Positions 20,120 to 59,116 of a stretch of DNA of 64,000 nucleotides are shown one piece after another. Made by a program: the position numbers and the translations under genes. Location: contig CAZYUB010000007.1 in assembly GCA_964650515.1 (NCBI GenBank), forward strand, positions 20,837 to 84,836. Reading direction: 5' to 3'. Every line of letters starts with the position of its first letter. Within the stretch, counting starts at the first letter, position 1. The notes beneath the pieces are model-generated. The model saw only the letters and a program-made list of their open reading frames with translations, was not told where the DNA came from and ran no database searches. The stretch comes from an uncultured Planctomycetia bacterium. Its GTDB lineage: Bacteria > Omnitrophota > Gorgyraeia > Pluralincolimonadales > Pluralincolimonadaceae.

Positions 20120-20177
20120 TTGACGGGGCATGCCTTAGGTGGTATACAATAGGTATGCATTGGTGTATACAGGTATA
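20120..20177 (+). promoter_or_regulatory. TTGACG-17-TATACA promoter followed by four 11-bp-phased GGTATA repeats (site A)
   Basis: GGTATA-like cores at 20141, 20152, 20162/5 and 20172. Same architecture as 23440 and 24332. Confidence 0.55.
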
Positions 20178-22620
20178 TAACAGGAACAGGCGCGGCGCAG
20201 CCCTGATCATGACGGTGGGGGTGCTCAGCATGCTCGTGCTCATAGGCGTCTCGTTCGCCGCTACTACGCAGGCCATATACAGGGAGGCAAGGAATTACTC
20301 CAATTCCGTGAAGGCGAGATACCTCGCCGAAGCGGGGATAGCGAGGGCGATAGCCGAACTCCGCTGCGGCGCGGAAGGCGCGGTATCGGACGCGGTAGAT
20401 ACGCAGGCGGAGGGCTGGTATGCCGGATATTCCGCCGTTCTCGGCGGCGGCAGGTACCAGGTGAGCGGCACGGATTGCGCGGCCAGGATATATATAAACG
20501 ATACCAACCCGAACCTCAGCGCCATGCTTGAAAACCTCACGGCGGCACTCATATCCATGGACGAGCCGCTTTCAGCCGGGGACGGCGCCGCGATAGTATC
20601 GAACCGGCCGGCCGAAGGTTATATGAGCGAGCAGGAGGTGGAAGAGCCGTTCAGGCCTTACGTTACCGTAAGGGCGTTCCGGGATACGGCCGTCTATTCG
20701 AACGCTTCGCCTTTTCCGGCAGTCCCGAGGGCGCCCGTAAACGTCAATACCGCTTCCAAGCCGGTACTTAAAGCCGTCCTGTCCGGAATAGAAGCGCTGC
20801 ATATGTGCCCGAGGTGCGGAGGCGACGGGACGATATTCGCCGCAAGCGCGTGCCCGGATTGCGGGGGGACCGGCGGCCTAAGGATCACCTCTGCGGAGGC
20901 GGATGGGCTCGCGGACTACATAATTGCGAACCGCCCGTATTCGACATGGGGCCAATTCTATAACTCGATAAAATCCTGCGCAAGTATAGGAGCGCAGGAC
21001 GCGGACCTCGTGATGGCGAACGCGAACCCGAACGCGGGATTCGCGCCCGGGGCGCGCAATTACGGCTGGGCAAGCGGCGCGGGGCGTATCGGCAAAGATA
21101 TCGACCCGGCGGACAGCGGACGCGGCCTTACAACTCACACGACGGAATTCTGTTTCAATTCGGGGGGATATTACGATATCGTCTCGACCGGGACGGTAGA
21201 GGCAGGCGCGGGGACGGTCGTGGCTTCAAGGAGCATAAGGTCTGTCGTGAAGATATTCGATATCTGGAGGCAGACAACGCAGTCGGAATTCCAGGCGGGC
21301 GCCATGAGCGGCCTGCAGAGCTATCCGGAGCCGATAGGCGCGGGCATAGCGCCGGCGGCGTTCGACGGGCAGCTGATGCTCGCGACGAACGAGGACCCGT
21401 CCACCGCCAATACGCTGCTGAGGGCAAGCTTCAACGACGGGCTCGACCTCGATTCGGCGGCGAACGCGAATATCGTCAGGGATCCGGCGAGCACCTGCTC
21501 CGTGGGGAGCGTGGCCGACGCGTCGGACCCGGGCAGCTTACTGCCGGACGGCGTCTTCGTCAACAAAAAGTCCAACGATTACATATCGTTCATGGAGAAC
21601 TGGAGCGGCACCTATAACATGGCGAAGGCGGACATGGGGACGCTTTCGCTCTGGGTCAAAGCCGTATCCGGCGGAGAGGTGTATTCGGGGATGAGCTTCT
21701 CCGGTTACGAGATAGACACGTACGGCAACGGGCATACTGACGGCGGCCCGCCGTGGGATTTTTCGCTCTTCGAGATACACCCGAGCGGCTTCATTCCCGG
21801 CTCTCCGTTCGGCGACTGGAACTGGTGGAGGCCGGGTTACGCGAACAGGACGGAGGTATGGTTCTACGAACAGTGGGACGCCGCCCTGCCCGAGAGGCCT
21901 ATCGGATTTATCGGGTTCCAGGAGGTCGGAAGCGGCATCGGCGGTGGCAACGTCTCGCAGATAATGAGCACAGGCCGCGCGAGGAAGAACTGGGCGCCGG
22001 GCACATGGCACCATGTCGTCTTCACGTATGAATTGAGCAATCCCGCCGACCCGAACTGCATGACGGGGACTAAGAAGATATACATAGACGGCGCCGAGCC
22101 CCCGCATTACGCCTATGACACGATATACCACCGGCTTAACGGCGATGTCCGCGACATTACCCTCGGCACGTCGGACATCAATAACAGCCATTCAGACGGC
22201 ACCTATATAATAGACGAGTTCAGGTCGGAGCACGCCTGCGCGACGGCCGCGCAGGTCATGGCGGAATTCGCGTCCGGCAGATATTACGATAACAGCGACG
22301 CGGAATTCACGTCGTCAGCGTTCGACGCTGGAGAAGCGCGCATCGGCACGGTATCGTGGACTGAACACATGCCCGCGAGTGTCGCCGGAGGCGATATACG
22401 ATTCGATATAGACAACGGCTCGGGATGGCTCGGCGGGTATGCCGCGCGCAACGACCCAGCGGGATCCCCCGTGGACGCGATGACCACCGGGACGAACCTT
22501 ATAAGGTATAAGGCGTATTTCGTGAATTCGGGTACGGGGCTTACCGATACGCCGGTCCTCGATGACGTGACCGTCACTTATTTGAGAAGGGCGGAAATAC
22601 TTTACTCAAGGGAGGAATGA
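20155..22620 (+). CDS. PilX/GspK-like N-terminus (RRGAALIMTVGVLSMLVLIGVSFA) fused to a large secreted domain with a Cys4 knot and a C-terminal LamG/ConA-like lectin domain
   Basis: Minor-pseudopilin-like N-terminus; CPRCGGDG..CPDCGG; WHHVVFTY..KKIYIDG LamG signature; C-terminal RYKAYF..TPVLDDVTVTY module shared with the giant ORF at 59871. Start uncertain (ATG 20155 lies inside the repeats; alternative ATG 20209). Confidence 0.6.
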   Translation: MHWCIQVYNRNRRGAALIMTVGVLSMLVLIGVSFAATTQAIYREARNYSNSVKARYLAEAGIARAIAELRCGAEGAVSDAVDTQAEGWYAGYSAVLGGGRYQVSGTDCAARIYINDTNPNLSAMLENLTAALISMDEPLSAGDGAAIVSNRPAEGYMSEQEVEEPFRPYVTVRAFRDTAVYSNASPFPAVPRAPVNVNTASKPVLKAVLSGIEALHMCPRCGGDGTIFAASACPDCGGTGGLRITSAEADGLADYIIANRPYSTWGQFYNSIKSCASIGAQDADLVMANANPNAGFAPGARNYGWASGAGRIGKDIDPADSGRGLTTHTTEFCFNSGGYYDIVSTGTVEAGAGTVVASRSIRSVVKIFDIWRQTTQSEFQAGAMSGLQSYPEPIGAGIAPAAFDGQLMLATNEDPSTANTLLRASFNDGLDLDSAANANIVRDPASTCSVGSVADASDPGSLLPDGVFVNKKSNDYISFMENWSGTYNMAKADMGTLSLWVKAVSGGEVYSGMSFSGYEIDTYGNGHTDGGPPWDFSLFEIHPSGFIPGSPFGDWNWWRPGYANRTEVWFYEQWDAALPERPIGFIGFQEVGSGIGGGNVSQIMSTGRARKNWAPGTWHHVVFTYELSNPADPNCMTGTKKIYIDGAEPPHYAYDTIYHRLNGDVRDITLGTSDINNSHSDGTYIIDEFRSEHACATAAQVMAEFASGRYYDNSDAEFTSSAFDAGEARIGTVSWTEHMPASVAGGDIRFDIDNGSGWLGGYAARNDPAGSPVDAMTTGTNLIRYKAYFVNSGTGLTDTPVLDDVTVTYLRRAEILYSREE

Positions 22621-22623
22621 CAG

Positions 22624-23469
22624 ATGAGATACTGGATGATATCGATTGCGCTGGCGCTCATGATCGTGAATACGGTATCGGCGGAGACGGGATCGGCCGT
22701 CGAGGGCTATAGCCCCGCGGTTCCGCTGCCTTCAAAAATGCCCGCGGAAGCCGGGATAAAGATATCGAAAGCCGCGATAGATTTTTCCGGCGGTGAATAC
22801 CGCGTAAAAGTCAGCGGCAGCACCGGCCTTCCCGACAAGGCGAGGATATACGTCTTCCTGAAGAAGGGGGAGTTTCCGCTGGACTGCAAGATCGCGCGCG
22901 CGGAAGGAGGCAGGTTCTCGGTAGAGCTCGGGCCGTTCCGGGTAAAACTGCCGATAGGCATATATAATGTGGAGGCGTCGCTGACGGCGGCGAGAGCATC
23001 CGGCGCGAAAGACATATACCGTCTCGTGGCCGGTAACCCCGAAGACGCGGTAAAAGAGGAAGAGTCCAGCAGGGCCGCGGTCTCGGCAAGCCTGGCTTCT
23101 GTCAGCGCGCTGTATGATGAGCTAGAGCAGAAGCGCGCGCAATACAAGGACAGTTTCGACCCGGCTGAATGGAGGAGATGGTCGGAAGGGTGGACTGCCC
23201 GCCTCAGGAACGAACAGCAGGCGGTCGATAACAACATAAAACCGCTGTTGGCCGGCGATTATTCGGGCCCCGGCCAGGCGCTTTCGCAGCTGATAAGGGA
23301 CCTTGACCAGCTCGGAAGGGTGTATTCGTCCGAACTGGACGGTGGCGGTATCAAGGATGCCTACCCTTATGCCTTCAGGGACCCCGCGCAGCTCAGGGCG
23401 GTCATCAACGAAGGCCTTAAAAATAGCAAAAAAGTCGTATTGACAAACTGTGGCCTAAATGGTATATGA
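22624..23469 (+). CDS. Secreted hypothetical protein
   Basis: Signal peptide; no recognisable motifs; 3 nt after the PilX-like gene. Confidence 0.5.
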   Translation: MRYWMISIALALMIVNTVSAETGSAVEGYSPAVPLPSKMPAEAGIKISKAAIDFSGGEYRVKVSGSTGLPDKARIYVFLKKGEFPLDCKIARAEGGRFSVELGPFRVKLPIGIYNVEASLTAARASGAKDIYRLVAGNPEDAVKEEESSRAAVSASLASVSALYDELEQKRAQYKDSFDPAEWRRWSEGWTARLRNEQQAVDNNIKPLLAGDYSGPGQALSQLIRDLDQLGRVYSSELDGGGIKDAYPYAFRDPAQLRAVINEGLKNSKKVVLTNCGLNGI

Positions 23470-23505
23470 ATGGTATACTAATGGTATTAATTGGTATAGT
23501 ATAAT
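23440..23505 (+). promoter_or_regulatory. TTGACA-17-TATATG promoter with four GGTATA repeats at 11/11/10-bp spacing plus TATAAT (site B)
   Basis: GGTATA at 23461, 23472, 23483 and 23493; TATAAT at 23500-23505. Confidence 0.55.
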
Positions 23506-23520
23506 CCCACACGAAAGGAG

Positions 23521-24276
23521 GTGAAAAGATTGAAATATCTGATCGCATTGTTGGCATGCATGTTCATATTCGCGGCTTCTCCCGAGGCCCACGCAGTCCT
23601 GAATTGGGCGGGAGAGGACACCGACGCGCCTTCAAACGCGTTGAACTGGAGCTACGGGTTCTCGCAGGGAGGCGACACGGTAGAGCTGGTCACGACGCTG
23701 GACGGCAACTGCGCGCCTTCGGTAACCACCGAAGCGCATTCGGGCGCCGAATCGGTCAAGTTCCACTGGACCCACACGAAGGACACGGTCAACTGGGGAA
23801 CAAGGACAGCCTTGCAGGTTGGAAGCGACGGCAACGGCGGAGACAGCCTAGGCACCTCGATGATGTTCCACGATATCTCAACGGCGAACAACCTGACCTT
23901 CTGGGTCAAGGGCGCGGTTGGCGGGGAACAGTTCAGGGTCGCCCTGAACAGCGGCTGGGAAGGATCGGCGTATCCGACCGACCAGACGAACCAGCTGCTC
24001 GTGAGCGGAGTAACAAGCTCATGGCAGCAGGTAGTGATGCCCCTGTCGGGATTCACGTATGATTTCCAGTATTCGGAGAATCCCGGCCCGATCGACCTGG
24101 CCCATTTGACGGGCGTCAGGTTTGTCATAGAGTCGGGCGAGCCGACCGGCGAAGGGACGGTGTATATCGATGACATCTCGTTCGATACGCAGACGGTCCC
24201 GGAACCCGCGAGCCTTCTTTTACTCGGCTCCGGCTTGAGCGGCATGTTGGTCTTTGTAAGGAAGCGTAAAGCATAA
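23521..24276 (+). CDS. PEP-CTERM-anchored secreted protein with a carbohydrate-binding-module-like beta-sandwich domain
   Basis: C-terminal VPEPASLLLLGSGLSGMLVFVRKRKA (PEP motif, TM segment and basic tail). FWVKGAVGGEQFRVAL motif shared with 5 other proteins in the window. Start may be TTG 23530. Confidence 0.75.
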   Translation: MKRLKYLIALLACMFIFAASPEAHAVLNWAGEDTDAPSNALNWSYGFSQGGDTVELVTTLDGNCAPSVTTEAHSGAESVKFHWTHTKDTVNWGTRTALQVGSDGNGGDSLGTSMMFHDISTANNLTFWVKGAVGGEQFRVALNSGWEGSAYPTDQTNQLLVSGVTSSWQQVVMPLSGFTYDFQYSENPGPIDLAHLTGVRFVIESGEPTGEGTVYIDDISFDTQTVPEPASLLLLGSGLSGMLVFVRKRKA

Positions 24277-24331: not shown

Positions 24332-24377
24332 TTGACAAATTCCCGCTATGTGGTATACATAAGGTATGGGTGGTATA
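24332..24377 (+). promoter_or_regulatory. TTGACA-16-TATACA promoter with three GGTATA repeats (site C)
   Basis: GGTATA at 24352, 24363 and 24372, upstream of the regulator gene. Confidence 0.5.
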
Positions 24378-24419
24378 TACCAATCCTAACCGAATATTGT
24401 ATCTAAGAGGAGGCGGGAG

Positions 24420-25529
24420 ATGGACGGTAAGTTTGACAAGAAGAGGCCGATGCTCTTTTACCAGCAGTTCGCGGATATGATCAGGGACCAGATCAACAGG
24501 AACCGGTATAAACCGGGCGAATACATCCCTTCCGAAAGGCAACTGAGCAAGGATTTCAAGCTCAACAGGATGACAGTGAGGAAGGGCATCGCGATGCTGG
24601 TGGAGGAAGGCCTGCTGCAGCCGTTCAGGGGGCGCGGGACTTTCGTTACGGGTTATCCCCAGCCCGGGAAGAAGACCCGGTCCAGGGATATCGGCTACGT
24701 CTTCATAAAGGATTTCAATTTTCCGCTTTCGAAGAATCCTTATTACACGGAGATCCTTGAAGGGGCGGAAGCCGAAGCTTCAAAACTGGATTATAAGTTC
24801 TTTCTAATGTCAGTAGATTACGATGAGAGCAAGCTAAGGGAGCTCGCGTCGCGCATAATCAGCGATAAGATAGGCGGGGCGGTCTTCGTAGGAAGGCTCG
24901 ACGAGAAGGTCGAGGAGATAATAACCTCCCTCGCGAAACGCAAGATACCCGTCGTCGTCATAGACAGGTACGTGCCCTATAACGGCGTCAGCGCGGTGCT
25001 GACCGACAATGCGAAGGGCGCGTATGACGCCGTGCAATACCTGGCTTCGCTCGGCCACCGGGACATAGGGTTCATTACGGGGCCGAAGTCGAACCAGGCG
25101 GTGCAGGAGAGGATCGGCGGATTCGAGAAGGCCGCCGGGGAACTCAAGCTCAAGGTGAAGGCGGAGCACACGGCCGAGAGCGACCTGCATATACACGGCG
25201 GATACCTCGCGATGAAGAAGATACTCGGGGCGCGCAAGTTCCCCACGGCGGTCTTCGCGATAAACGACGAGGCGGCGATAGGCGCGATGCGCGCGATACA
25301 CGAGAAGGGGTTGAAAATCCCGAAGGACATATCGCTCGTAGGGTTCGACGACATCGAATGGGCTTCGCACACGATGCCCGGGCTTACTACCATCAAGATC
25401 TACAAAAAAGAGATCGGCGCCGCTGCCGTGAAGAAACTCACGGAGCAGATCGAGGATAAGGCCGCTCTACCGGTCAAGAACGTGATGCCGGTAAAGCTTG
25501 TCCTCAGGGAGAGCGCCTCTCATGCCTAA
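24420..25529 (+). CDS. AraR-like transcriptional regulator (GntR-type winged HTH + LacI/GalR-type sugar-binding domain)
   Basis: PSERQLSKDFKLNRMTVRKGIAMLVEEGLL HTH, then a periplasmic-binding-protein-like fold. Confidence 0.8.
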   Translation: MDGKFDKKRPMLFYQQFADMIRDQINRNRYKPGEYIPSERQLSKDFKLNRMTVRKGIAMLVEEGLLQPFRGRGTFVTGYPQPGKKTRSRDIGYVFIKDFNFPLSKNPYYTEILEGAEAEASKLDYKFFLMSVDYDESKLRELASRIISDKIGGAVFVGRLDEKVEEIITSLAKRKIPVVVIDRYVPYNGVSAVLTDNAKGAYDAVQYLASLGHRDIGFITGPKSNQAVQERIGGFEKAAGELKLKVKAEHTAESDLHIHGGYLAMKKILGARKFPTAVFAINDEAAIGAMRAIHEKGLKIPKDISLVGFDDIEWASHTMPGLTTIKIYKKEIGAAAVKKLTEQIEDKAALPVKNVMPVKLVLRESASHA

Positions 25530-25547: not shown

Positions 25548-27905
25548 ATGGGTAGTAAGCTGGATAAGTACGGTTATTTCGATAACGATAAGAAAGAATT
25601 CGTCATCGCGAGGCCCGACACGCCTCTTCCGTGGATCAATTACCTCGGCTGCGAGCAGTATTGCGGCCTCATGTCGAACACCGCGGGCGGCTACAGCTTC
25701 TGGATAGACCCGCTCGAGAACAGGATACTGCGTTACAGGTATAATAATATCCCTTCCGACAGGGGCGGCAGGTACATCTACCTGAGGGACAACAAGTCCC
25801 GCGATTTCTGGTCCGCCTCGTGGCAGCCCGTCCTTAAAAGCCCCGATAAATACAAATACGAGTGCCGCCACGGCCTCGGGTATACCGTCATATCATCGGA
25901 ATATTCCGGCATAAAGACGAAGACATCATATTTCGTCCCTCTCGGGGAGAACCTCGAGATATGGATGATGGAGGTCGAGAACGCCTCGAAGAAAGACAGA
26001 GACCTTGACGTCATTTCTTTCGTGGAGTTCTGCCTGCCGAACGCGCTCGAGGACATGACGAACTTCCAGGCGAACCTTAACACCGGCGAGACCGACTACG
26101 AGGACGGCACCGTCTACAACATCAGCAAACACCGCGTTACTAAGGCGCATTTCTCGTTCTTTACCGTCGCCAACCGGAAGGTCAATAGCTTCGACAGCAA
26201 GCGCGACGACTTCCTCGGGCCTTACGCCGACCTCAGCGCGCCGCGCGCCGTCGTGGAGGGCAAGGGCAAGAACGGCATCAGCTGCGGCTGGTCGCCGGTC
26301 GGGTCGCACAATATAGGCATGAAACTGAAGAAGGGCGAGTCGAAGACGGTGATATTCATCCTCGGCATCGCGCATTCGAGGAAAGAGGTCGACGGCTACA
26401 GGAAAAAATATTCCAACAGGGCCAAGGTCCTCGACGCATTGAAAAACCTCAACGGGCACTGGGAGGAGAACCTCGACAAATTCAAGGTCGAGACTCCGGA
26501 CGGCGACCTTGACCTGATGGCTAACATCTGGAACCAGTACCAGTGCCGCTCGACGTTCAACTGGTCGCGCTCGGCCTCATACTATGAATCCGGCATCGGC
26601 CGCGGCATGGGTTTCCGCGACTCGAACCAGGACACGCTCGGTTTCGTGCATATGGTCCCGGAGAAGGTGAAGCAGAGGATAATCGACCTCGCCTCCACGC
26701 AGTTCGAGGAGGGCGACGCGCACCACCAGTATTCCCCGCTCACGAAGAAGGGAAGGGAGCGCGGATATTCCGACGACCACCTCTGGCTCATATATTCCGT
26801 CGCGGAATATATCAAGGAGACGGGCGATACGAATTTCCTCTTAGAGAAGATCCCTTACAACAACGAAAAGACAGGCACACTGCTCGAGCATCTCGAAAGG
26901 GCGATAGATTATTCGGTCAAGAACACCGGGCCGCACGGCCTGCCGCTCTCCGGGTTCGCCGATTGGAACGACTGCCTTAACCTGCGCGGGCCTAACAACA
27001 AGGGCGAGTCGGTCTTAGTCGCGCAGATGCTCGTGCTGGCCGCGAAGGAGATGGCCGGCCTGCTGAGGTTCGTGAAGGAGCCGAACAAGGCGGCGCGTTT
27101 CGACGAGATAGCGGAGCGCATGACGGAGAGGATAAACGAGGTCGCCTGGGACGGCGCGTGGTATGTCAGGGCTTATGACGACAACTCGAACGTGGTCGGC
27201 TCAAAAAAGAACAAGGAAGGCAGGATATTCCTTGAGTCGCAGGGATGGGCGGTCATGTCGGGCGTGGCGCCGAAAGACAGGGCGATAAAGACGCTCGATT
27301 CGGTCGAAGAGCACCTCGCCACCGAGCACGGCGTCATCCTCCAGCAGCCGGCTTACAACGATTACCACAAGAGCCTGGGCGATGTCTCGTCATACCCGCC
27401 GGGGCTCAAGGAGAACGCCGGCATATTCTGCCATCCGAACCCGTGGGTCATGATAGCTGAATGCATAGCCGGGCGCGGCGACAGGGCGCTTTGGTATTAC
27501 AAGGCGATACTGCCGCCGTCGAAGGACCCGGATGTCCGCAGGGTCGAGCCGTATATCTATTGCCAGATGGTCGCCGGAAGGGACCATCCCGATTTCGGCG
27601 AGGGCAAGAACTCGTGGCTTACCGGGACTTCGGCGTGGAATTTCGTCGCGGTCTCGAAGTATATAATCGGGATAAGGCCGGATTACGACGGGCTTGTCGT
27701 CGACCCCTGCATACCGGAAAAATGGGCGGGGTTCAGGGCGGCGAGGAAGTTCCGCAACGCCGTCTACGACATCTCGGTGGATAATCCCGGGCATGTCAGC
27801 AAGGGCGTATCTTCGGTAAAGGTGGACGGGAAGTTCATAGAGGGGAACAAACTGCCCGTATTCAACGACGGCAAGAAACATTCCGTCGAGATAACTATGG
27901 GCTAA
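25548..27905 (+). CDS. GH94 cellobiose/cellodextrin phosphorylase
   Basis: Length (785 aa) and GH94-like motifs throughout; no signal peptide, so cytoplasmic. Confidence 0.85.
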   Translation: MGSKLDKYGYFDNDKKEFVIARPDTPLPWINYLGCEQYCGLMSNTAGGYSFWIDPLENRILRYRYNNIPSDRGGRYIYLRDNKSRDFWSASWQPVLKSPDKYKYECRHGLGYTVISSEYSGIKTKTSYFVPLGENLEIWMMEVENASKKDRDLDVISFVEFCLPNALEDMTNFQANLNTGETDYEDGTVYNISKHRVTKAHFSFFTVANRKVNSFDSKRDDFLGPYADLSAPRAVVEGKGKNGISCGWSPVGSHNIGMKLKKGESKTVIFILGIAHSRKEVDGYRKKYSNRAKVLDALKNLNGHWEENLDKFKVETPDGDLDLMANIWNQYQCRSTFNWSRSASYYESGIGRGMGFRDSNQDTLGFVHMVPEKVKQRIIDLASTQFEEGDAHHQYSPLTKKGRERGYSDDHLWLIYSVAEYIKETGDTNFLLEKIPYNNEKTGTLLEHLERAIDYSVKNTGPHGLPLSGFADWNDCLNLRGPNNKGESVLVAQMLVLAAKEMAGLLRFVKEPNKAARFDEIAERMTERINEVAWDGAWYVRAYDDNSNVVGSKKNKEGRIFLESQGWAVMSGVAPKDRAIKTLDSVEEHLATEHGVILQQPAYNDYHKSLGDVSSYPPGLKENAGIFCHPNPWVMIAECIAGRGDRALWYYKAILPPSKDPDVRRVEPYIYCQMVAGRDHPDFGEGKNSWLTGTSAWNFVAVSKYIIGIRPDYDGLVVDPCIPEKWAGFRAARKFRNAVYDISVDNPGHVSKGVSSVKVDGKFIEGNKLPVFNDGKKHSVEITMG

Positions 27906-27908
27906 CGC

Positions 27909-29033
27909 ATGAAGGAGACACAGATGAAGAAAGCGATGATCCTGGCAATGATGCTGGCGGTGCCGCAGTTGTGCATGGCCGCCGAATACGGGACCGTGTT
28001 CAAGGAGAATATGGGCAAGTACACATACGCATACCCGTCCACGAGCACGATCGAGATAGCCGAGCAGGGCGCGAAGGCCGGAAGGTCCTGCCTCCTGTTT
28101 GTCCTCGACCATAAGGAATACTCGGGCGGCGCGTTCGCGTTCAGCGATCCGATTGACGTTTCCCCGATAAAGGATACCGGCTCGCTCGAGTTCTGGATAA
28201 AGGGCGGCAACGGCGGGGAGAGGCTTGAGGTCGCGCTCGTGAACGAGCAGGCCGACGGTAAAAAAGCCGAAAGCTTTTTAAGCTTAAATTCCGTAAGCAG
28301 CGTCGACAACCGGTGGAAGAAGGTAGAGATACCGCTGAAGCTCTTCCCAAAGAACGGCATCTACTGGGACGCGGATAAGGGCAAGGAGCTCCCGCTCGCG
28401 TTCGACTGGAAGAACGTGACGGAATTCAAGGTCCGGACGAGGCCTACGCAGGGCCAGGATGACATAAAACTCTATTTCGACGATATCGTCTTCACGAAAG
28501 ACGCGGCTCCGGGCGTCAACGCGCTTGTCGTGTTCGACGGGGCGTTCCCGTCCTATACGTACGCGTATCCGGAGAGCGGAAGCAGGATAACCGTATCGGC
28601 CGGTGACGTGTTCGAGGGCAAGCCCTCGGCGAAGATATCGCTTAACGCGAAGGACTATTCGGGCGCCGCGTTCGCTTTCGGGCCCGTTGACCTCAGCGGA
28701 ATGCGCGAAGCGGGAGTCCTCGAGTTCATGATGAAGAGCGGCGCGGGCGGCGAGAAGGTGGAGATATGCCTCGTGCAGGCGGCAGAGCCGAAAGTAGAGA
28801 CCGGCGTGAGCCTGAGCGGCATAAAACCCCTGACTGCCGAATGGCAGAAATACGAGATACCGCTTAGCATGTTCCAGGACAGGGGCAAGTACTGGGACGA
28901 GGTCTCCAAGAAAGAGGTCGGCGCTGACGTGAAGAACTGGGACAAGATCGGCGAGCTCAAGTTCAAGATAAGGAAGGACGAGAACAAAGAATGCTCCCTA
29001 TACATAACGGACGTAAAGTTCAGATTGCAGTAA
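27909..29033 (+). CDS. Secreted protein with two tandem carbohydrate-binding-module-like beta-sandwich domains
   Basis: Signal peptide; internal duplication (EFWIKGGNGGERLEVALV and EFMMKSGAGGEKVEICLV). Confidence 0.6.
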   Translation: MKETQMKKAMILAMMLAVPQLCMAAEYGTVFKENMGKYTYAYPSTSTIEIAEQGAKAGRSCLLFVLDHKEYSGGAFAFSDPIDVSPIKDTGSLEFWIKGGNGGERLEVALVNEQADGKKAESFLSLNSVSSVDNRWKKVEIPLKLFPKNGIYWDADKGKELPLAFDWKNVTEFKVRTRPTQGQDDIKLYFDDIVFTKDAAPGVNALVVFDGAFPSYTYAYPESGSRITVSAGDVFEGKPSAKISLNAKDYSGAAFAFGPVDLSGMREAGVLEFMMKSGAGGEKVEICLVQAAEPKVETGVSLSGIKPLTAEWQKYEIPLSMFQDRGKYWDEVSKKEVGADVKNWDKIGELKFKIRKDENKECSLYITDVKFRLQ

Positions 29034-31288
29034 TTGCGGCGGCGGTATTGCTCTGTTCATGCGCGAAGAAACCCGAAGTCGAATTCAAATTGCGGGTTTT
29101 CGACGGTGATATGGCCGGCTGCAGGGAATATTGGGGCGACTCCTGGATAGGAAGCGGAAGCGGAAGCCGCGTCGACCGGGCCGACGACAAGATAAAACTG
29201 GCCGACCTTGGAAAAGAAGGGCCTGTCCCTGAGGGGCTTGCGCTCGATTTTTCCGGGGAGAACGTTAAGGGCGGCTGGTGGTCCGCTTGTCTGGCCCGGC
29301 CAATGTGGCAGGTGATGTCGCTCGATAATTACAGGGACAAGGGATGCCTCGAGATGTGCGTAAAGGGCGCCTCCGGAGGGGAGGAGTTCATCATAGGGCT
29401 TGCAGACAAGAGCAAGCTTAAGAGGGAGGCAATGCTGCCTTCCTCAAGGTTCTTCGCGGTCACTACGCAATGGCAGCGCGTAAGGATACCCCTGTCGGAA
29501 TTTGCCGCTGTAAAGCAAAGCCTCGATTTCGACAGGATATCGCACATCATAATCAGGAACGGGAACAAGCCGGGGAAATTCGCCTTTTATATAAAGGACG
29601 CGGCTTTCCGTTCGGAGCTCGTCGAGAAGTCCTATCCGCTCATCAAGGTGGACCAGGCGGGATACGCGCCTGCGGAAAAGAAGGTAGCCAAGGTATCCGG
29701 TATCGGGATAAAGGGCTACGGCGGCAGCGAATTCCATTTGATCGACGAGGATACAGGCAAGGAGGCCTTCTCCGGCAGGTTGAAGTACGTCTCGGGGCGC
29801 GATAGAGCGACGGGCGACGCGGTGTTCGACGCGGATTTTACCGCGTTCGACAGGCCCGGAAGGTACAGGGTGCGTATAGTGAGAATAGAGCACGATAGCC
29901 CCGTTTTTTGCGTCTCGGATTCCGCTTATGATACCGTGCTGCGCGATTCATTGAGGATGTATTTTTACCAGAGGTGCGGGACGGCCCTCGAGGCCGGATG
30001 CGCCGGCAAATGGACGCACGCTTCATGCCATAACGATGATGCGTACCTGTTCTCCGACGAGTCGAAAAAGATCGAGGCGACGGGCGGCTGGCATGACGCA
30101 GGTGATTACGGGAAATATGTGGTCAACGGCGGCATCGCCGCGGGAACGTTGCTGGCGATATACGAGCTCCGTCCGGGGAACTTTTCAGACGGCCAGCTCG
30201 GTATACCCGAGAGCGGGAACTCCGTCCCCGATATTCTCGACGAGGCGAGGCGGGAGGTCGAGTGGTTCCTGAAGATGCAGAGGGAAGACGGCGCGGCCTG
30301 CCATAAGCTGGCCGGGGAATATGCCCCCGTCGACAGGTCTCCGGACCGGGACCAGGTAAAAAGGTTCATAATGGACATATCGACCCCTGCAACCGCGAAC
30401 CTGGCCGCTGTCGCCGCGATAGCCTCGCGGACCTACGGCAAGCATGACCCGGTTTTCTCGAAGAGATGCCTGGATGCGGCGGAAAGGGCGTGGGCGTACC
30501 TGGAGTCCCACCCTTCGAATTATCCGCCGAGGGGCTACTCCGATCCTGTTTTGGATAAGGGCGAAATTGACGGAGGCGATTACGGCGACGACCCGCAGGG
30601 AAAATGGACTCAGGGCGACAGGGACGAAAGGTTCTGGGCCGCCTGCGAACTTTTCCGCGCTACGGGAAAAGGCGTATACCATGATTACATAAAAGCGAAT
30701 TACGGGATATTCAAGGCCGGCCACGCGATGAACTGGCAACAGGTGCAGAACCTGGGCCTCTATTCATATTGCATGTCCGCGCCAGCCGATACTTCGCTGA
30801 AGAAGGAGATAATGGAGTCCCTCGGCAAGTACGGCAAGGGAATATTGAAGGCCTCCCGCGCCAACGCTTATAGCAACGCAAACCGCGAATATGAATATTA
30901 CTGGGGCTCGAACACAGTCGCGCTGAATTACGGCGTCGACCTGATATACCTGTACGAGATGACCGGAGACCGCAGGTACAGGGACGCCGCGCTCGACCAG
31001 CTGCACTATATACTCGGCAGGAACGTCTTCGGGCTGTCGATGGTAAGCGGCATCGGAGAGAAAAGTATAGAAAAATATTATCACACATGGTTTAATAATA
31101 GCGATTACGACACATTGCCCCCGGGATTCATGGTCGGGGGGCCGAATGCCGATAATTTCAGGGTATCGCGGTATCCGGGGCGCTGCTACAAGAACGTCGG
31201 CTCCGACTTCACCGTCGACGAGATAGCGGTAAATTACAATGCGCCGCTGGTCTTCGTATCGGGTTATTTCAAGGAGGATAAGAGATGA
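28991..31288 (+). CDS. GH9 endoglucanase lipoprotein (carbohydrate-binding-module-like domain, CelD-type Ig-like domain, GH9 catalytic domain)
   Basis: ATGGWHDAGDYGKYVVNG and DEIAVNYNAPLVFV GH9 signatures; VDQAGYAPAEKKVAKV Ig-like N-terminal domain; LLCSC lipobox-like sequence. Confidence 0.85.
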   Translation: MLPIHNGRKVQIAVIAAAVLLCSCAKKPEVEFKLRVFDGDMAGCREYWGDSWIGSGSGSRVDRADDKIKLADLGKEGPVPEGLALDFSGENVKGGWWSACLARPMWQVMSLDNYRDKGCLEMCVKGASGGEEFIIGLADKSKLKREAMLPSSRFFAVTTQWQRVRIPLSEFAAVKQSLDFDRISHIIIRNGNKPGKFAFYIKDAAFRSELVEKSYPLIKVDQAGYAPAEKKVAKVSGIGIKGYGGSEFHLIDEDTGKEAFSGRLKYVSGRDRATGDAVFDADFTAFDRPGRYRVRIVRIEHDSPVFCVSDSAYDTVLRDSLRMYFYQRCGTALEAGCAGKWTHASCHNDDAYLFSDESKKIEATGGWHDAGDYGKYVVNGGIAAGTLLAIYELRPGNFSDGQLGIPESGNSVPDILDEARREVEWFLKMQREDGAACHKLAGEYAPVDRSPDRDQVKRFIMDISTPATANLAAVAAIASRTYGKHDPVFSKRCLDAAERAWAYLESHPSNYPPRGYSDPVLDKGEIDGGDYGDDPQGKWTQGDRDERFWAACELFRATGKGVYHDYIKANYGIFKAGHAMNWQQVQNLGLYSYCMSAPADTSLKKEIMESLGKYGKGILKASRANAYSNANREYEYYWGSNTVALNYGVDLIYLYEMTGDRRYRDAALDQLHYILGRNVFGLSMVSGIGEKSIEKYYHTWFNNSDYDTLPPGFMVGGPNADNFRVSRYPGRCYKNVGSDFTVDEIAVNYNAPLVFVSGYFKEDKR

Positions 31289-31881
31289 AAAAGGTTTTTT
31301 TGGCAGCCCTGATGATGCTGCAGGCAGCGGCCCTGTGCGCGGCGGTAGTTTACGGGATCTTCTCCGAGGAGATAGAGAAGGAAGGTACCTACCACTATTC
31401 CTACCCGACGGACGGTACGAGCGAGATAAGGACCACGAACATAGAGAAACATTCGGGGAATTATTCGATGAAGGTCACGCTTAACCCTTCCGGGTTTTCG
31501 GGCGCGGCTATAGGCAATTACCCGCCGATGGACCTGTCGAAATGCCGTGAGACTGGCGCGCTGGAATTCTGGATAAAAGGTGAGAACGGCGGCGAGAAGT
31601 GCGAGATACTCCTTCTCGACGACTCGAATAACGACGGCAACAAGACGGAAGTCGGGGTGGCAATAACGCCGAAATATGTGGCGATAACAAAGGACTGGCA
31701 GAAGGTCAGCGTCCCGCTGAAGGCGTTCCCGAACGACGGGCAGTACTGGGACGGCGAGAAGAACGTCAAGAATGCCGTCAATTGGAGCGAGATCGTGGAG
31801 TTCAAGGTCGCGAGCCGCCCCTATGACAAGAACGCCGGGTTCACGGTCTATATAGACGACGTGAACATAGTGATGCCATGA
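31285..31881 (+). CDS. Secreted single carbohydrate-binding-module-like domain protein
   Basis: Signal peptide; EFWIKGENGGEKCEILLL motif. Confidence 0.6.
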   Translation: MKKVFLAALMMLQAAALCAAVVYGIFSEEIEKEGTYHYSYPTDGTSEIRTTNIEKHSGNYSMKVTLNPSGFSGAAIGNYPPMDLSKCRETGALEFWIKGENGGEKCEILLLDDSNNDGNKTEVGVAITPKYVAITKDWQKVSVPLKAFPNDGQYWDGEKNVKNAVNWSEIVEFKVASRPYDKNAGFTVYIDDVNIVMP

Positions 31882-34760
31882 TAAAAAACATAAGATCGTT
31901 CCTCGCGATGGCCGTATGCGGCGCCTTCATTCTGCCGAACTCCGGGAGCTGGTATACGAAGGACGATTCGCCGGATAAGGGCGCCTCCGTGATAAGCTTT
32001 AGGGTCGACGAGAAAGCGGACGCAACAGGCGGCGACGGCTCGATATCGTTCGAATATTCCCTGGGTAAAGGTTTCCAGTGGCCGTATGTCCAGTTATTGT
32101 GCCCGCTTTCGCAGGATGGTGCCGCGGGCACCAAGGACCTCAGCGCGTATTCCGGCGTGTCGCTCTGGATCAAGACCGAAGGAAAGACGCAGGTGAGGAT
32201 CGTCATATTCACCTGCGAAGACGGCGTTACCGACATAAATAACAGCGGCACCTACAGGCACAACGAAGTATCGATAAAGACATCCGACAGGTTCGTCCAT
32301 TACAAGATACCTTTCGAGCAGTTCAAGACGCCGCAGTGGTGGTTGAGCCAGCATACCGGTGCCAAGAAACAGCCCGACTGGAGCAAGTCGATAGAATTCG
32401 CGGTAATGGAAGACGACAGCCTCTCTGCCGGCGCGGGTGAGAAGGGGTGGATAGACGGGATAACTTTTTACAGGGGCCCGCTCGAGATAAAGGCCGCGTC
32501 GCCCGCGGACAGGGAATCCGGGGTGAAAGCGGACGCGCCGGTAAAGATATCGTTCAGTTTTCCCGTGACGACCGAAGAACTCCAAAAAAATTTCCGGCTC
32601 ATAAAGACGGACCAGGGCGGAAAACCCGTCGAATGCGCCGTAACCGTGTCCGCTGACGGGCGGGAAGCGGTGTTTACTCCCTCGAAACCGCTCGATGCCA
32701 AGAGCCGTTATCTTTATAAGATATACAAGAGACTCGTGAACTTCACGACGGAATACGGTATCGGGAATATCTACGGTCGCGTGACCGGCGAGGATGGAAA
32801 GCCCGTCGCCGACGCGTCGGTAAGGACATATCCCGACGATAAGAGGACGAGGACCGACAAGGACGGCAGGTACTATTTCGAGGGAGTGAACCTCGACAGG
32901 ATATACCTCTACTGCGTGAAAGACGGCTATTATACGGGATTCGGAGTGTTGCCGCTCGTGCCGAAGGAGGATTTCTATGTCGATTTCAGGCTTTCGGAAA
33001 CCCCGAGACGGGACGGGAAAGTCCAGCCGTTCCTGTTCGGCGTGAATTTCAACGACTGGGAGACCGAAGGGTACCTTCTACCGGTAAAGGACAAGGTCAA
33101 GGCCGCGGGTTTCACGATAATGAGGTGGGGCGGCATCGGCAAGGACCTTATCGAGGTCGACGAGGCGAAGATAGACGAGTTCATCTCATACGCGAAAGCG
33201 GTAAGGGCTGAACCCGTCGTGCAGGTCAGGCTCATTAAAGGCAGTATCGAAGAGGCGGTCAAGGCGGTCAAATACTGCAATATCGCCAAGCGCTACAAGG
33301 TGAAATACTGGATAATCGGCAACGAGCCCGACTGGTATAACGAGAAGCAGTGGGGGCCTTACGGCGCGGAGGATTACTGCAGGGATTACCGCGCGTATTA
33401 CAACGCTATGAAGGCGGTGGACCCCTCGATAAAGATAATGGGCCCCGAGCTGACCGCGAAATACTATCTCGCCGCGCCGGACAACTGGATAGAGCCGTTC
33501 CTCAGGGAATGCGGCGATATAATAGATATCATATCGATACACCTCTACCCGTACAGCGGCAAGCAGCCGCCCCAGCAGACGCTTATGGGCCTCGGCAATT
33601 ACAGGCGCGTGATAGACAGCATCAGGCAGAAGGCGCGGGAGATCTCCGGGCGCGAGATACCCATTGCGGTCACCGAGTATAACCTGACATGGGACTGGCT
33701 CGCCGAGGGCGACGGCGCGAACAATTCGTTTTACGCGGGCCTCTACCTCGCCGACTTCCTCGGCGCAATGGCGGAGAAACAGGTGTTCATCGCGAACTTC
33801 TGGGACATCATGGAGAAGGGCACGATCGGGTTCCTCGAGCATGAGACGTTCAAGCCGTACCCGACCTATTACACGTTCATGATGTACAAGAATTTCCGCG
33901 GCGAGCTCATAGATACCGTGACGGACAAAAAAGAGCTGAAGGTCTACGGCGCGAAGGACAAAAGCGGCAATGTGGTATTGATGGTCATCAACAAGAGCGG
34001 CAGCAGGCAGGTCGAGGCGGAACTCGCCCCGGGGGCCCTGAAGAAAATACAGGACAGGTATTATTCCTTCCCGCCGTATTCGCTTACTTGCCTGAAGATC
34101 GGCTCCGGCGGCAGGTGCTCCGACGCGTGGCAGTATTCGAAGGAGCTATACGATAAAGGCGAAGGCATGCTGTCGGGCAGGGAGCTTGTAAAGAAGACCG
34201 TGCTGAAAGAGCTTGCCCCTGCGGCCGCGCAGGCCGGGCCCGGGGCAGGCAAAGGCCTGATGGATGATTTCGAAAGCAGGGACTTCGTATCACCGATGGG
34301 CGGCGCATGGATACCGGAAGACGACTCGGTAAACGGCGGCGATTCGACGGCGAAGATATCGCTTGCCGAAGGCAACGGCAGCGCCTCGGGCCTGAAGTTC
34401 GAATATACGCTTGGCGGGAAATTCAACAACAGGTATTCCATATGCGCGGCGGTATTCGACGGCCCCGTTGACCTTTCGAAGCACAGGAAAATGGTATTCT
34501 GGGCCAAAGGGTCGGCAAAGCCCTTCAAGATAAAGGTCTGCTCCGCCTCCGTAGGCGATTATGACTACCATGGCACCGCAATAACTCCCTCCGAAGATTG
34601 GAAAGAATATTCCGTTGACCTGCCCTCCCTCAAGCAGGAGGGTTGGGGCAGGAAAACAGATATTGACCTCACGCAGGTAAACAAGATACAATTTGAATCA
34701 GGCACGAAGACCGCCGGTGACGAAGGTTTCATTGTCGTTGACGATATCCGTTTCGAATAA
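31878..34760 (+). CDS. Multidomain secreted glycoside hydrolase: CBM-like domain, Ig-like domain, CarboxypepD_reg-like domain, clan GH-A TIM-barrel catalytic domain, C-terminal CBM-like domain
   Basis: GRVTGEDGKPVADASV..DKDGRYYF; YWIIGNEPDW (acid/base) and IAVTEYNL (nucleophile). Family not resolvable by eye (GH5/30/44-like). Confidence 0.65.
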   Translation: MIKNIRSFLAMAVCGAFILPNSGSWYTKDDSPDKGASVISFRVDEKADATGGDGSISFEYSLGKGFQWPYVQLLCPLSQDGAAGTKDLSAYSGVSLWIKTEGKTQVRIVIFTCEDGVTDINNSGTYRHNEVSIKTSDRFVHYKIPFEQFKTPQWWLSQHTGAKKQPDWSKSIEFAVMEDDSLSAGAGEKGWIDGITFYRGPLEIKAASPADRESGVKADAPVKISFSFPVTTEELQKNFRLIKTDQGGKPVECAVTVSADGREAVFTPSKPLDAKSRYLYKIYKRLVNFTTEYGIGNIYGRVTGEDGKPVADASVRTYPDDKRTRTDKDGRYYFEGVNLDRIYLYCVKDGYYTGFGVLPLVPKEDFYVDFRLSETPRRDGKVQPFLFGVNFNDWETEGYLLPVKDKVKAAGFTIMRWGGIGKDLIEVDEAKIDEFISYAKAVRAEPVVQVRLIKGSIEEAVKAVKYCNIAKRYKVKYWIIGNEPDWYNEKQWGPYGAEDYCRDYRAYYNAMKAVDPSIKIMGPELTAKYYLAAPDNWIEPFLRECGDIIDIISIHLYPYSGKQPPQQTLMGLGNYRRVIDSIRQKAREISGREIPIAVTEYNLTWDWLAEGDGANNSFYAGLYLADFLGAMAEKQVFIANFWDIMEKGTIGFLEHETFKPYPTYYTFMMYKNFRGELIDTVTDKKELKVYGAKDKSGNVVLMVINKSGSRQVEAELAPGALKKIQDRYYSFPPYSLTCLKIGSGGRCSDAWQYSKELYDKGEGMLSGRELVKKTVLKELAPAAAQAGPGAGKGLMDDFESRDFVSPMGGAWIPEDDSVNGGDSTAKISLAEGNGSASGLKFEYTLGGKFNNRYSICAAVFDGPVDLSKHRKMVFWAKGSAKPFKIKVCSASVGDYDYHGTAITPSEDWKEYSVDLPSLKQEGWGRKTDIDLTQVNKIQFESGTKTAGDEGFIVVDDIRFE

Positions 34761-34789
34761 CGGAACTTTCCAGGTCGAAAACTGTCTAA

Positions 34790-36115: not shown

Positions 36116-36135
36116 TCTAGAAAACGGAGGTCTGC

Positions 36136-45002: not shown

Positions 45003-45005
45003 TTT

Positions 45006-49933: not shown

Positions 49934-49965
49934 TAGGGCTTGAAACGGCCGGCCTCAGGCAGGAG

Positions 49966-56873: not shown

Positions 56874-56874
56874 G

Positions 56875-59115: not shown

Positions 59116-59116
59116 T

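What the first reader, a model, noticed from the sequence alone, without database searches (positions are those of the whole stretch)
20155..22620. PilX/GspK-like pseudopilin N-terminus fused to an 800-aa LamG lectin body
The N-terminus (NRRGAALIMTVGVLSMLVLIGVSFAATTQAIYREARNYSNSVKARYLAEAGIARAIAEL) matches the PilX_N/GspK pattern, a Gly followed by a long hydrophobic helix then an amphipathic helix. The rest is a large extracellular domain with a Cys4 knot, a LamG signature (WHHVVFTY) and the module shared with the giant ORF. No cognate pilus machinery is nearby, which suggests a tip adhesin or substrate for an unusual secretin-based system. The start codon is ambiguous because ATG 20155 lies inside the GGTATA repeat array.
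Basis: partly seen in the sequence, partly recalled or inferred. Interest (0 to 1): 0.6.

Follow-up and report, generated by a model that had tools for sequence, protein, structure and literature searches.

The report
Lectin-tipped GspK pseudopilin heading a cellulose locus
This gene encodes a complete GspK-type "tip" subunit of a type II secretion/type IV pilus filament with a sugar-binding lectin module grafted on; in uncultured Omnitrophota it is the first, apparently co-regulated gene of a cellulose-degradation locus, which suggests that these bacteria give one filament machine a different, locus-specific tip for each polysaccharide.

Summary

Residues ~401-710 are a LamG-type carbohydrate-binding jelly roll, and 711-821 a conserved beta-sandwich. 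A DnaJ-type 2x CxxCxGxG zinc finger is inserted in the helix-hairpin-helix domain.

ATG 20155 is the start. In one relative the ATG-20209 equivalent is CTG, and the family conserves (K/R)G(V/I)ALI.

The "GGTATA array" is four direct repeats with a 10-11 bp period. It recurs at only two other sites in the 64 kb, upstream of the PEP-CTERM CBM gene and of the GntR/PBP regulator gene. All three sites are conserved in relatives.

The order K-like, partner, PEP-CTERM CBM, regulator, GH94, CBM30, GH9 is conserved down to 43% identity. Paralogues in the same MAGs sit in mannan loci or directly after gspH-I-J.

Best reading: a locus-specific alternative tip pseudopilin whose LamG module binds the target glycan. 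Glycan binding and assembly into a filament are inferred, not shown.

The parts
20120..20180 (+). Putative promoter plus operator. TTGACG (20120-20125), 17 nt, TATACA (20143-20148), overlapped by four direct repeats GGTATAC / GGTATGC / GGTGTAT / GGTATAT at 20141, 20152, 20162 and 20172. The start codon lies in repeat 2.
   Evidence: The same layout is conserved in L009, L010, L013, L001 and L003. The consensus promoter scan did not call it, so its promoter function is an inference.
20155..22620 (+). CDS of the GspK-like modular pseudopilin (821 aa)
20155..20196 (+). Predicted class III leader peptide MHWCIQVYNRNRRG, ending in the conserved Gly14. Its coding sequence doubles as repeats 2-4 of the operator array.
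   Evidence: Gly14 is >90% conserved.
20197..20367 (+). Pilin alpha-1 helix (aa 15-71): a hydrophobic N-half followed by an amphipathic half. Position +5 is Met, not Glu.
   Evidence: AF2 helix 13-71. NCBIfam GspK model matches aa 13-91 with E 2.5e-7. No representative with the N-terminal motif has Glu at +5.
20368..21354 (+). GspK globular module (aa 72-400): pilin beta-sheet with an inserted alpha/HhH domain. The invariant PVNVNTA is aa 194-200 (nt 20734-20754) and the conserved TTEFCFNSGGYY is aa 329-340.
20806..20874 (+). Inserted DnaJ-type zinc finger, CPRCGGDG...CPDCGGTG (aa 218-240). Within the family it is a clean presence/absence indel.
21355..22284 (+). LamG / concanavalin-A-like jelly roll (aa ~401-710, WHHVVFTY at 618-625). 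This is the locus-specific variable module.
22285..22620 (+). C-terminal beta-sandwich (aa 711-821, ...TPVLDDVTVTY), conserved across the family and shared with the giant ORF.
22624..23469 (+). Partner gene (281 aa): Sec signal, beta-sandwich and helical bundle. It starts 3 nt after the K-like stop codon, with a GGGAGG Shine-Dalgarno inside the end of the K-like gene.
   Evidence: It is found immediately downstream of K-like genes in most loci examined.
23440..23505 (+). Second copy of the cis-element: TTGACA followed by four TGGTATA repeats at 23461, 23472, 23483 and 23493.
23521..24276 (+). PEP-CTERM-anchored CBM11/CBM30-like protein (start more likely TTG 23530)
24332..24381 (+). Third copy of the cis-element: TTGACA, 16 nt, TATACA, with repeats at 24352, 24363 and 24372.
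24420..25529 (+). Regulator with a GntR-type HTH and a LacI-type sugar-binding domain. It is the candidate binder of the repeats.
25548..34760 (+). Rest of the conserved locus: GH94 cellobiose/cellodextrin phosphorylase, CBM30 protein, GH9 cellulase with CBM30, CBM30/11 protein, and a GH39-like/CIA30 protein.
   Evidence: Synteny.
53710..57927 (+). The only filament-machinery genes in the window: ExeA/MshM-like ATPase, a 232-aa ORF, a GspD/PilQ-type secretin and a TPR protein. Whether this secretin serves the K-like protein is unknown.

Best explanation
The gene encodes a modular minor pseudopilin of the GspK (tip-capping) class.

Shown here:
- It has a class III-type leader ending in Gly and no Glu at +5.
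- It has a full GspK fold.
- A LamG carbohydrate-binding-type module and a conserved beta-sandwich are grafted on C-terminally.
- It is the first gene of a conserved cellulose/cellodextrin locus.
- It shares a direct-repeat cis-element with the two other promoter regions of that locus.
- It always travels with a secreted partner gene.
- The same genomes carry paralogous K-like+partner cassettes in mannan loci and directly behind gspH-I-J.

Inferred:
- When the locus is induced, presumably through release of the GntR/PBP regulator from the GGTATA repeats, the protein is processed by the prepilin peptidase.
- It joins GspI/GspJ, which are encoded elsewhere, as an alternative cap of the cell's single type IV filament (T2SS-like) machine.
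- That presents its LamG module at the filament tip.
- The module binds the beta-glucan targeted by the locus, tethering the cell or its secretion port to insoluble substrate, alongside the PEP-CTERM-anchored CBM protein and the secreted GH9/CBM30 enzymes.
- Each polysaccharide locus therefore supplies its own interchangeable tip.
For: Identity:
- Pfam T2SSK scores 28.6 bits, above its cut-off of 24.2. The NCBIfam GspK model matches aa 13-91 with E 2.5e-7.
- The AF2 model has pLDDT 84 and pTM 0.84.
- The family consensus is (K/R)G(V/I)ALI, Gly14 is >90% conserved, and 0 of 137 representatives have Glu at +5.

Family position:
- Distant members sit as the K gene in clusters ordered T2SSE-T2SSE-T2SSF-T2SSG-H-I-J-K-PilM...Secretin.
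- Closer members follow GspH (..G|FTLIE), GspI and GspJ.

Lectin module:
- Other family members carry CBM_4_9 or PA14.
- LamG is the paralogue-specific part. It is ~25% identical to the mannan-locus copy, while the K module is 43% and the C-terminal sandwich 54% identical. It is 43-88% identical among cellulose-locus orthologues.

Locus link:
- Synteny is conserved down to 43% identity.
- 16 of 36 genome loci are CAZyme loci.
- The three repeat arrays are the only such clusters in 64 kb and are conserved in relatives.

Precedent: K caps the HIJK tip, and S. sanguinis PilC is a tip-located modular pilin with a ConA-like lectin module that binds glycans (PMC9934059).
Against: - There is no experimental or expression data. 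Processing, incorporation into a filament and glycan binding are all inferred.
- This copy has no adjacent gspH/I/J, ATPase or platform gene.
- The NCBIfam GspK equivalog cut-off (130 bits) is far from met.
- The LamG HMM is just below Pfam's cut-off for this sequence (23.7 vs 27.6).
- LamG folds can also bind proteins.
- An 85-kDa cap must pass the secretin.
- The orthologue P0004 seems to have Ala rather than Gly at -1.
- The partner's function is unresolved.
- The promoter is not called by a consensus scan, and regulator binding to the repeats is a guess.
Confidence: 0.55

Rival explanations
1. Cargo-selective T2SS tip. The K-like protein caps a short periplasmic pseudopilus. Its LamG module, with the partner, recognises the locus's own secreted proteins (GH9, CBM30 proteins, GH39-like, GH3) and pushes them through the secretin. 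Each polysaccharide locus would then bring its own secretion adaptor rather than an adhesin.
For: - The family's core cluster has a T2SS-type major pseudopilin (T2SSG), two GspE-like ATPases and no PilT-like retraction ATPase.
- Most proteins of the locus carry Sec or lipoprotein signals and must cross the outer membrane to reach cellulose.
- A T2SS is required for cellulose utilisation in Cytophaga hutchinsonii (PMC5553014).
- T2SS tip complexes are thought to contact substrates (established knowledge, from memory).
Against: - The variable modules in the family (LamG, CBM_4_9, PA14) are typical glycan binders.
- No cargo-recognition role of a GspK extension is known.
- The cargo sets of the cellulose and mannan loci are heterogeneous.
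Confidence: 0.22
2. Adhesin for other cells. The lectin tip binds surface glycans of a host or prey cell, in line with the proposed predatory or episymbiotic lifestyle of Omnitrophota, and the linked enzymes digest that cell's envelope polysaccharides rather than plant cellulose.
For: - T4aP and giant adhesin-like ORFs with Laminin_G_3 domains are linked to a symbiotic or predatory lifestyle in Omnitrophota (PMC10066038; 10.1101/2023.11.21.568195).
- The window also holds a giant LamG ORF behind a secretin cluster.
- That ORF shares a module with this protein.
Against: - The linked genes are classic beta-1,4-glucan and cellodextrin catabolism: GH9, CBM30, GH94, GH3.
- Paralogues sit in beta-mannan loci with ABC sugar importers.
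- That fits free polysaccharide foraging better.
Confidence: 0.1
3. Not a filament subunit. The hydrophobic N-terminus acts as an uncleaved signal anchor, or as a Sec signal cleaved after VSFA. The GspK-like domain has been exapted as a scaffold for a periplasmic or membrane-bound oligosaccharide-binding or sensing protein.
For: - This copy is an orphan, away from gspH-I-J and the assembly genes.
- A possible AxA-like site (S-F-A) follows the hydrophobic stretch (sequence).
- P0004 may lack Gly at -1.
- The mannan-locus copies sit next to ABC importer genes.
Against: - The Gly at the boundary between the charged leader and the hydrophobic stretch is conserved, and Glu+5 is absent across the family. 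These are pilin-specific features with no role in a Sec signal.
- The continuous alpha-1 helix and intact GspK fold are retained.
- The same genomes keep H-I-J-K arrays with near-identical K modules.
Confidence: 0.1

Closest known systems
GspK / XcpX, the tip minor pseudopilin of type II secretion systems (PDB 3CI0, 5VTM; Pfam PF03934)
   Same: - Class III-type leader ending in Gly, and no Glu+5.
- Pilin fold with an inserted helical HhH domain carrying the NxNTA motif.
- Family members occupy the K slot after gspH-I-J.
   Different: - About 2.5-3 times larger, with an added LamG module and a C-terminal beta-sandwich.
- A DnaJ-type zinc finger is inserted in the HhH domain.
- This copy is encoded away from the T2SS genes, inside a CAZyme locus.
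- There are several paralogues per genome, each with a partner gene.
- It scores far below the NCBIfam equivalog cut-off.
Modular type IV pilins, e.g. Streptococcus sanguinis PilC (ConA-like lectin module) and PilB (vWA module) (PMC9934059)
   Same: - A pilin module carries a grafted lectin module of the concanavalin-A/LamG superfamily.
- It is proposed (for PilC, shown) to sit at the filament tip and bind glycans.
   Different: - PilC has a short, atypical pilin moiety and is encoded in the pil operon of a monoderm pathogen.
- Here the pilin moiety is a full GspK fold in a diderm.
- The gene is embedded in and apparently co-regulated with a polysaccharide-degradation locus.
- It is diversified into locus-specific paralogues.
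Type IV pili and pilins implicated in cellulose adhesion (Ruminococcus, Fibrobacter) and the T2SS required for cellulose use in Cytophaga hutchinsonii (PMC3672088, PMC4668043, PMC5553014)
   Same: A type IV filament system is functionally tied to cellulose attachment or utilisation.
   Different: - In those systems the link is through major pilins or the whole machine.
- In what I read, no lectin-bearing K-type tip subunit encoded inside the degradation locus is described there.
Verru_Chthon cassette protein A (TIGR02600) of Verrucomicrobia (function unknown; description recalled from memory)
   Same: - A large (~1300 aa) protein with a GspK-like N-terminus.
- It occurs in multi-copy cassettes with pseudopilin-like genes in the PVC superphylum.
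- The N-terminal 63 residues match (22.9 bits).
   Different: - Only the N-terminus matches, and the score is far below the cut-off (332 bits).
- The cassette composition differs.
- No CAZyme-locus link is known to me.
Surface glycan-binding proteins (SGBPs) of Bacteroidota polysaccharide utilisation loci
   Same: A locus-encoded, presumably locus-co-regulated, non-catalytic glycan-binding protein specific for the locus's substrate (functional analogy only).
   Different: - SGBPs are outer-membrane lipoproteins working with SusC/SusD.
- No SusC/D or TonB-dependent transporter is present here.
- Presentation would be on a filament tip.

Membership tests
GspK-type minor pseudopilin (T2SS protein K; PF03934 / NF037980) | Class III signal: short basic leader ending in Gly(-1), followed by ~20 hydrophobic residues | tested here: met
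   The sequence is MHWCIQVYNRNRRG|AALIMTVGVLSMLVLIGVSFAA. Gly14 is >90% conserved in 61 homologues. 137 of 189 representatives carry the motif.
GspK-type minor pseudopilin (T2SS protein K; PF03934 / NF037980) | No Glu at position +5 of the mature protein (specific to the capping subunit) | tested here: met
   Position +5 is Met here. Across the family it is L/I/V/M/F and never E (0/137). GspH/I/J of the sister MAG have E5.
GspK-type minor pseudopilin (T2SS protein K; PF03934 / NF037980) | Match to the family HMM above the curated threshold | tested here: inconclusive
   Pfam T2SSK passes, at 28.6 bits against a cut-off of 24.2. The NCBIfam GspK equivalog scores 30.6 bits (E 2.5e-7) against a cut-off of 130. 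It is therefore a family member but not an equivalog of canonical GspK.
GspK-type minor pseudopilin (T2SS protein K; PF03934 / NF037980) | Pilin fold with a large helical (HhH) domain inserted in the beta-sheet | tested here: met
GspK-type minor pseudopilin (T2SS protein K; PF03934 / NF037980) | Gene located after gspH-gspI-gspJ in a T2SS/T4F gene cluster | tested here: not met
   There is no other class III-signal ORF in the window, and the gene follows a cation-efflux gene. The feature is met by paralogues and family members (L008, L021, L023-25, L031-32, L034-37, L039-40, L043-44).
GspK-type minor pseudopilin (T2SS protein K; PF03934 / NF037980) | Cleavage by prepilin peptidase and assembly with GspI/GspJ at the pseudopilus tip | not testable with these tools
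   This needs biochemistry.
PilX_N (PF14341) | HMM match above the gathering threshold | tested here: not met
   13.0 bits, E 0.1, against a cut-off of 25.5. A few homologues do carry precomputed PF14341 hits.
LamG / concanavalin-A-like lectin (PF13385 Laminin_G_3) | HMM match above the gathering threshold | tested here: not met
   23.7 bits, E 5.9e-5, against a cut-off of 27.6 for this sequence. Many homologues pass. The family profile hits the AbnA domain and the NanA CBM at E ~2e-5.
LamG / concanavalin-A-like lectin (PF13385 Laminin_G_3) | Jelly-roll beta-sandwich fold of the superfamily | tested here: met
LamG / concanavalin-A-like lectin (PF13385 Laminin_G_3) | Carbohydrate binding | not testable with these tools
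   Support is indirect only: the CAZyme-locus context, and CBM_4_9 or PA14 in sister proteins.
Modular type IV pilins (pilin module plus grafted functional module) | N-terminal pilin module with a class III signal followed by an independent functional domain | tested here: met
   Domain parsing.
DnaJ-type zinc finger (PF00684, CXXCXGXG) | Paired CxxCxGxG motifs; HMM above threshold; metal binding | tested here: inconclusive
   Two exact CxxCxGxG motifs are present (aa 218-225 and 233-240). The HMM scores 18.7 bits against a cut-off of 32.7. Metal binding versus disulfides is not testable.
Verru_Chthon cassette protein A (TIGR02600) | HMM above the cut-off over the full length | tested here: not met
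   22.9 bits against 332.3, and only model positions 1-63 match.
Bacteroidota-type PUL | SusC-like TonB-dependent transporter plus SusD-like gene pair | tested here: not met
   No such domains appear in any scanned ORF of the locus or window.

The most novel reading that the evidence does not exclude
Omnitrophota run a 'pilus-tip PUL' system. A single type IV filament (T2SS-like) machine with shared GspH/I/J is re-tooled by interchangeable K-type tip subunits. Each tip carries a different carbohydrate-binding module, has its own partner protein, and is encoded inside and co-regulated with the polysaccharide locus it serves (cellulose, mannan and others). This would be a glycan-capture strategy in diderm bacteria that is mechanistically unrelated to SusC/D, and it would imply that many Omnitrophota forage polysaccharides rather than living only as predators or parasites.
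Probability: 0.35. Interest if true: 0.8.

Novelty: new variant of a known kind. Interest (0 to 1): 0.6.

Why it matters
1. It gives a function-bearing annotation to a large unannotated family. There are about 1,000 clusters at 50% identity with E <= 1e-30, mostly labelled 'hypothetical' or 'LamG-like'.
2. It links type IV filament tips to polysaccharide-degradation loci through conserved synteny and a shared cis-element. That yields a directly testable hypothesis about how a diderm lineage without SusC/D finds and holds insoluble glycans.
3. It bears on the debated lifestyle of Omnitrophota. Secretion and pilus genes and giant LamG proteins have so far been read mainly as predation or symbiosis traits.
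4. Paralogous tips with swapped binding modules on a conserved K scaffold are a natural system for studying tip-complex assembly and for engineering displayed binders.

Tried and rejected
- **Alternative start ATG 20209: rejected.** The codon is CTG in L009. The ATG-20155 equivalent and its flanks are invariant in L009 and L010. No other in-frame start exists upstream, and the RRG|AALI segment matches the family consensus.
- **PilX_N membership:** below threshold.
- **Toxin or phage tail-fibre reading, suggested by the BoNT/TeNT Hc and tailspike hits: rejected.** Identity is ~10%, the hits cover only the jelly roll, and there are no catalytic or translocation domains.
- **DnaJ-like chaperone: rejected.** Only the zinc-finger motif matches.
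- **Consensus sigma-70 scan:** it did not call the proposed promoter, because TATACA lacks the T at position 6. The promoter and the leaderless-mRNA idea (predicted transcription start ~20155) therefore rest on conserved geometry only.
- **Other pilin genes in the window:** none found. The single regex hit lies inside a glycosyltransferase.
- **Literature:** searches found no description of PUL-embedded GspK-like genes. The library lacks most subscription-journal papers, so this absence is weak evidence.
Full report
**1. The observation**

- The four cysteines are C218, C221, C233 and C236, forming two CxxCxGxG motifs.
- WHHVVFTY is aa 618-625, inside a Laminin_G_3 match.
- The module shared with the giant ORF is real but weak. 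That ORF starts at 59871 and runs off the window end. The shared stretch is 24% identical over 196 aa, E 2e-4, and covers the end of LamG plus a C-terminal beta-sandwich ending ...TP.L.DVTV.Y.

**2. What the protein is**

HMM evidence:
- Pfam T2SSK scores 28.6 bits against a gathering cut-off of 24.2.
- The NCBIfam GspK model aligns aa 13-91 (E 2.5e-7) but stays far below its equivalog cut-off.

Structural evidence:
- An AlphaFold2 model built on 61 homologues is confident (pLDDT 84, pTM 0.84).
- It shows a 59-residue alpha-1 helix, a pilin beta-sheet interrupted by a helical domain (aa ~120-310), then two beta-rich domains.

So about 400 residues, not only the N-terminus, are GspK. LamG spans about aa 401-710, and aa 711-821 form a separate conserved sandwich.

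The zinc-finger-like Cys4 element is inserted right after the invariant PVNVNTA helix-hairpin-helix motif. It is a clean 25-residue presence/absence indel within the family.

**3. The start codon**
- The family N-terminus is conserved as a basic leader, Gly, then (V/I/A)ALI and a hydrophobic stretch. Gly14 is >90% conserved.
- Of 189 full-length representatives, 137 show this motif and none has Glu at +5. Lack of Glu+5 is the hallmark of the capping K subunit (PMC9934059).
- ATG 20155 is the only in-frame start upstream of that segment.
- In the 77%-identical relative L009 the ATG-20209 equivalent is CTG, while the ATG-20155 equivalent and its flanks are invariant.

**4. The GGTATA array**
- It consists of four direct repeats at 20141, 20152, 20162 and 20172, with a 10-11 bp period, just downstream of TTGACG-N17-TATACA.
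- Clusters of three or more such repeats occur only three times in the 64 kb. The other two are at 23461-23493, upstream of the PEP-CTERM CBM gene, and at 24352-24372, upstream of the GntR-HTH/sugar-binding regulator gene. Shuffles give a mean of 0.025 clusters.
- All three arrays are kept in relatives, including L001 and L003, whose K-like proteins are only 43-47% identical.

I read this as a promoter plus an operator for the locus regulator. Regulator binding is an inference, and a consensus scan does not call the promoter. The geometry would place the transcription start near 20155, suggesting a leaderless mRNA. That is speculative.

**5. Genomic context**

Homologues are almost all from Candidatus Omnitrophota MAGs. 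A 96%-identical copy lies in MAG SO_2017_LW4_113 (L011).

The gene order K-like, partner (~280-320 aa), PEP-CTERM CBM, GntR/PBP regulator, GH94, CBM30, GH9, CBM, GH39-like is conserved in L001-L004 and L009-L014.

I called ORFs in 36 genome loci and labelled them with BLAST against a panel of proteins whose Pfam annotation was already known. Three contexts emerged:
- **(A) Complete filament clusters.** Pfam verified one on L037 as T2SSE, T2SSE, T2SSF, T2SSG, H, I, J, K-like, PilM..., TPR-STN, Secretin.
- **(B) GspH-I-J followed by tandem K-like+partner cassettes** (L021, L023-25, L035; also L007 and L008). H, I and J there carry canonical G|FTLIE signals, and K has no Glu5.
- **(C) Orphan K-like+partner cassettes inside CAZyme loci.** These are the cellulose locus and a recurrent mannan locus ordered GH113, mannan-binding domains, GH130, ROK, DUF5060, PEP-CTERM, K-like, partner, ABC importer, LacI, GH2. 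They account for 16 of the 36 loci.

Single MAGs carry B and C types together. SO_2017_LW4_113, for example, has L011 (cellulose), L028 (mannan) and L035 (H-I-J-K array).

**6. Which part varies**

| Compared with | alpha-1 | K module | LamG region | C-terminal sandwich |
|---|---|---|---|---|
| Mannan-locus paralogue P0008 | 54% | 43% | ~25%, over only 98 aa | 54% |
| Cellulose-locus orthologue P0003 | 69% | 66% | 88% | 81% |
| Cellulose-locus orthologue P0004 | 35% | 46% | 46% | 58% |

The LamG region is thus the locus-specific module on a conserved scaffold. Other family members carry CBM_4_9 or PA14.

**7. The partner**

The 281-aa product of 22624-23469 starts 3 nt after the K-like stop codon, behind a GGGAGG. 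It is homologous to the genes that follow K-like genes elsewhere (E 1e-9 to 1e-22). It has a Sec signal, a small beta-sandwich and a helical bundle. The model is weak and fold hits are generic, so its role is open.

**8. Mechanism**

Shown: identity as a modular GspK-type pseudopilin, membership of a conserved cellulose locus with a shared cis-element, and paralogue-specific lectin modules.

Inferred: induction together with the locus; prepilin-peptidase processing; capping of the cell's type IV filament with GspI/J encoded elsewhere; and presentation of the LamG module at the tip, where it binds the locus's glycan.

Rivals:
- a cargo-selective T2SS tip for the locus's secreted enzymes, all of which carry signal peptides;
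- an adhesin for host or prey cells;
- a non-filament membrane-anchored binding protein.

**9. Comparison with what is known**

It works like the tip-located modular lectin pilin PilC of S. sanguinis (PMC9934059). By fold and signature it belongs to the GspK family, though it is not an equivalog of canonical GspK.

The Omnitrophota papers I read note T4aP, T2SS-like loci next to giant genes, and carbohydrate importers. They do not describe K-type pseudopilins embedded in polysaccharide loci. The library is incomplete, so prior description elsewhere cannot be excluded.

The family is large: 1,047 clusters at 50% identity with E <= 1e-30.

**10. Verdict**

I classify it as a new variant of a known kind. 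The main added value is the locus-specific, apparently co-regulated, interchangeable-tip arrangement. Interest 0.6.

Noticed in passing
window 53710-64000: The region holds an ExeA/MshM-like ATPase, a 232-aa ORF, a GspD/PilQ-type secretin, a TPR protein and a histidine kinase/response regulator pair. After these comes a giant ORF starting at 59871 that runs off the window end (>=1376 aa; Laminin_G_3 at 128 bits, and a weak GH130-like hint). The layout matches the 'T2SS-like locus upstream of giant genes' reported for Omnitrophota (10.1101/2023.11.21.568195).
   Followed up: partly
window 23440-23505 and 24332-24381: Two further copies of the TTGACA plus GGTATA direct-repeat element lie upstream of the PEP-CTERM CBM gene and the GntR/PBP regulator gene. 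Together with the array at 20141-20178 they are the only three such clusters in the window, and they are conserved in relatives.
   Followed up: yes
window 23514-23532: The PEP-CTERM CBM gene probably starts at TTG 23530, behind the AAGGAGG at 23514-23520, rather than at the GTG 23521 given by the mechanical ORF list.
   Followed up: no
L001 9959-10001: The database gene call for P0004 looks N-terminally truncated. An in-frame ATG 42 nt upstream gives MRSNRCYKSKRAAA|MIIII, with Ala instead of Gly before the hydrophobic stretch. This raises the question of whether that orthologue is processed by a prepilin peptidase.
   Followed up: partly
window 20806-20874; alignment A1: The 2x CxxCxGxG zinc-finger insert is a clean presence/absence polymorphism in the family (37 of 189 representatives), and all four cysteines are conserved wherever it is present. 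Its role in an exported protein (zinc site or two disulfides) is unknown.
   Followed up: partly
L005 12431-13510, L007 3792-4784, L008 7717-8733 and others: Many partner proteins carry an extra N-terminal ~45-aa domain (D.I.LKNGR..EG.I.E....L.I....G...I....I) that the window's partner lacks. Class B arrays also contain a second partner-like ~400-aa gene.
   Followed up: no
window 25548-39226: An Omnitrophota genome carries a complete-looking cellulose/cellodextrin catabolic locus: GH94, GH9+CBM30, CBM30/11 proteins, GH39-like, GH3+PA14. An ECF sigma / anti-sigma / DUF4412 set (34790-36717) is embedded in it. This is notable for a phylum mostly discussed as predatory or host-dependent.
   Followed up: partly
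window 41639-51189 (- strand): A cell-surface polysaccharide synthesis cluster lies on the minus strand. It holds three GT4 and one GT2 glycosyltransferases, a radical SAM enzyme, an ABC-2 transporter pair and a MetA-pathway-like outer-membrane protein.
   Followed up: no
window 52689-53273 and 676-3628: An IS200-like (Y1 transposase) gene lies between the BioY gene and the secretin cluster. Separately, there are two tandem radical-SAM genes with HMPTM-type N-terminal zinc ribbons.
   Followed up: no
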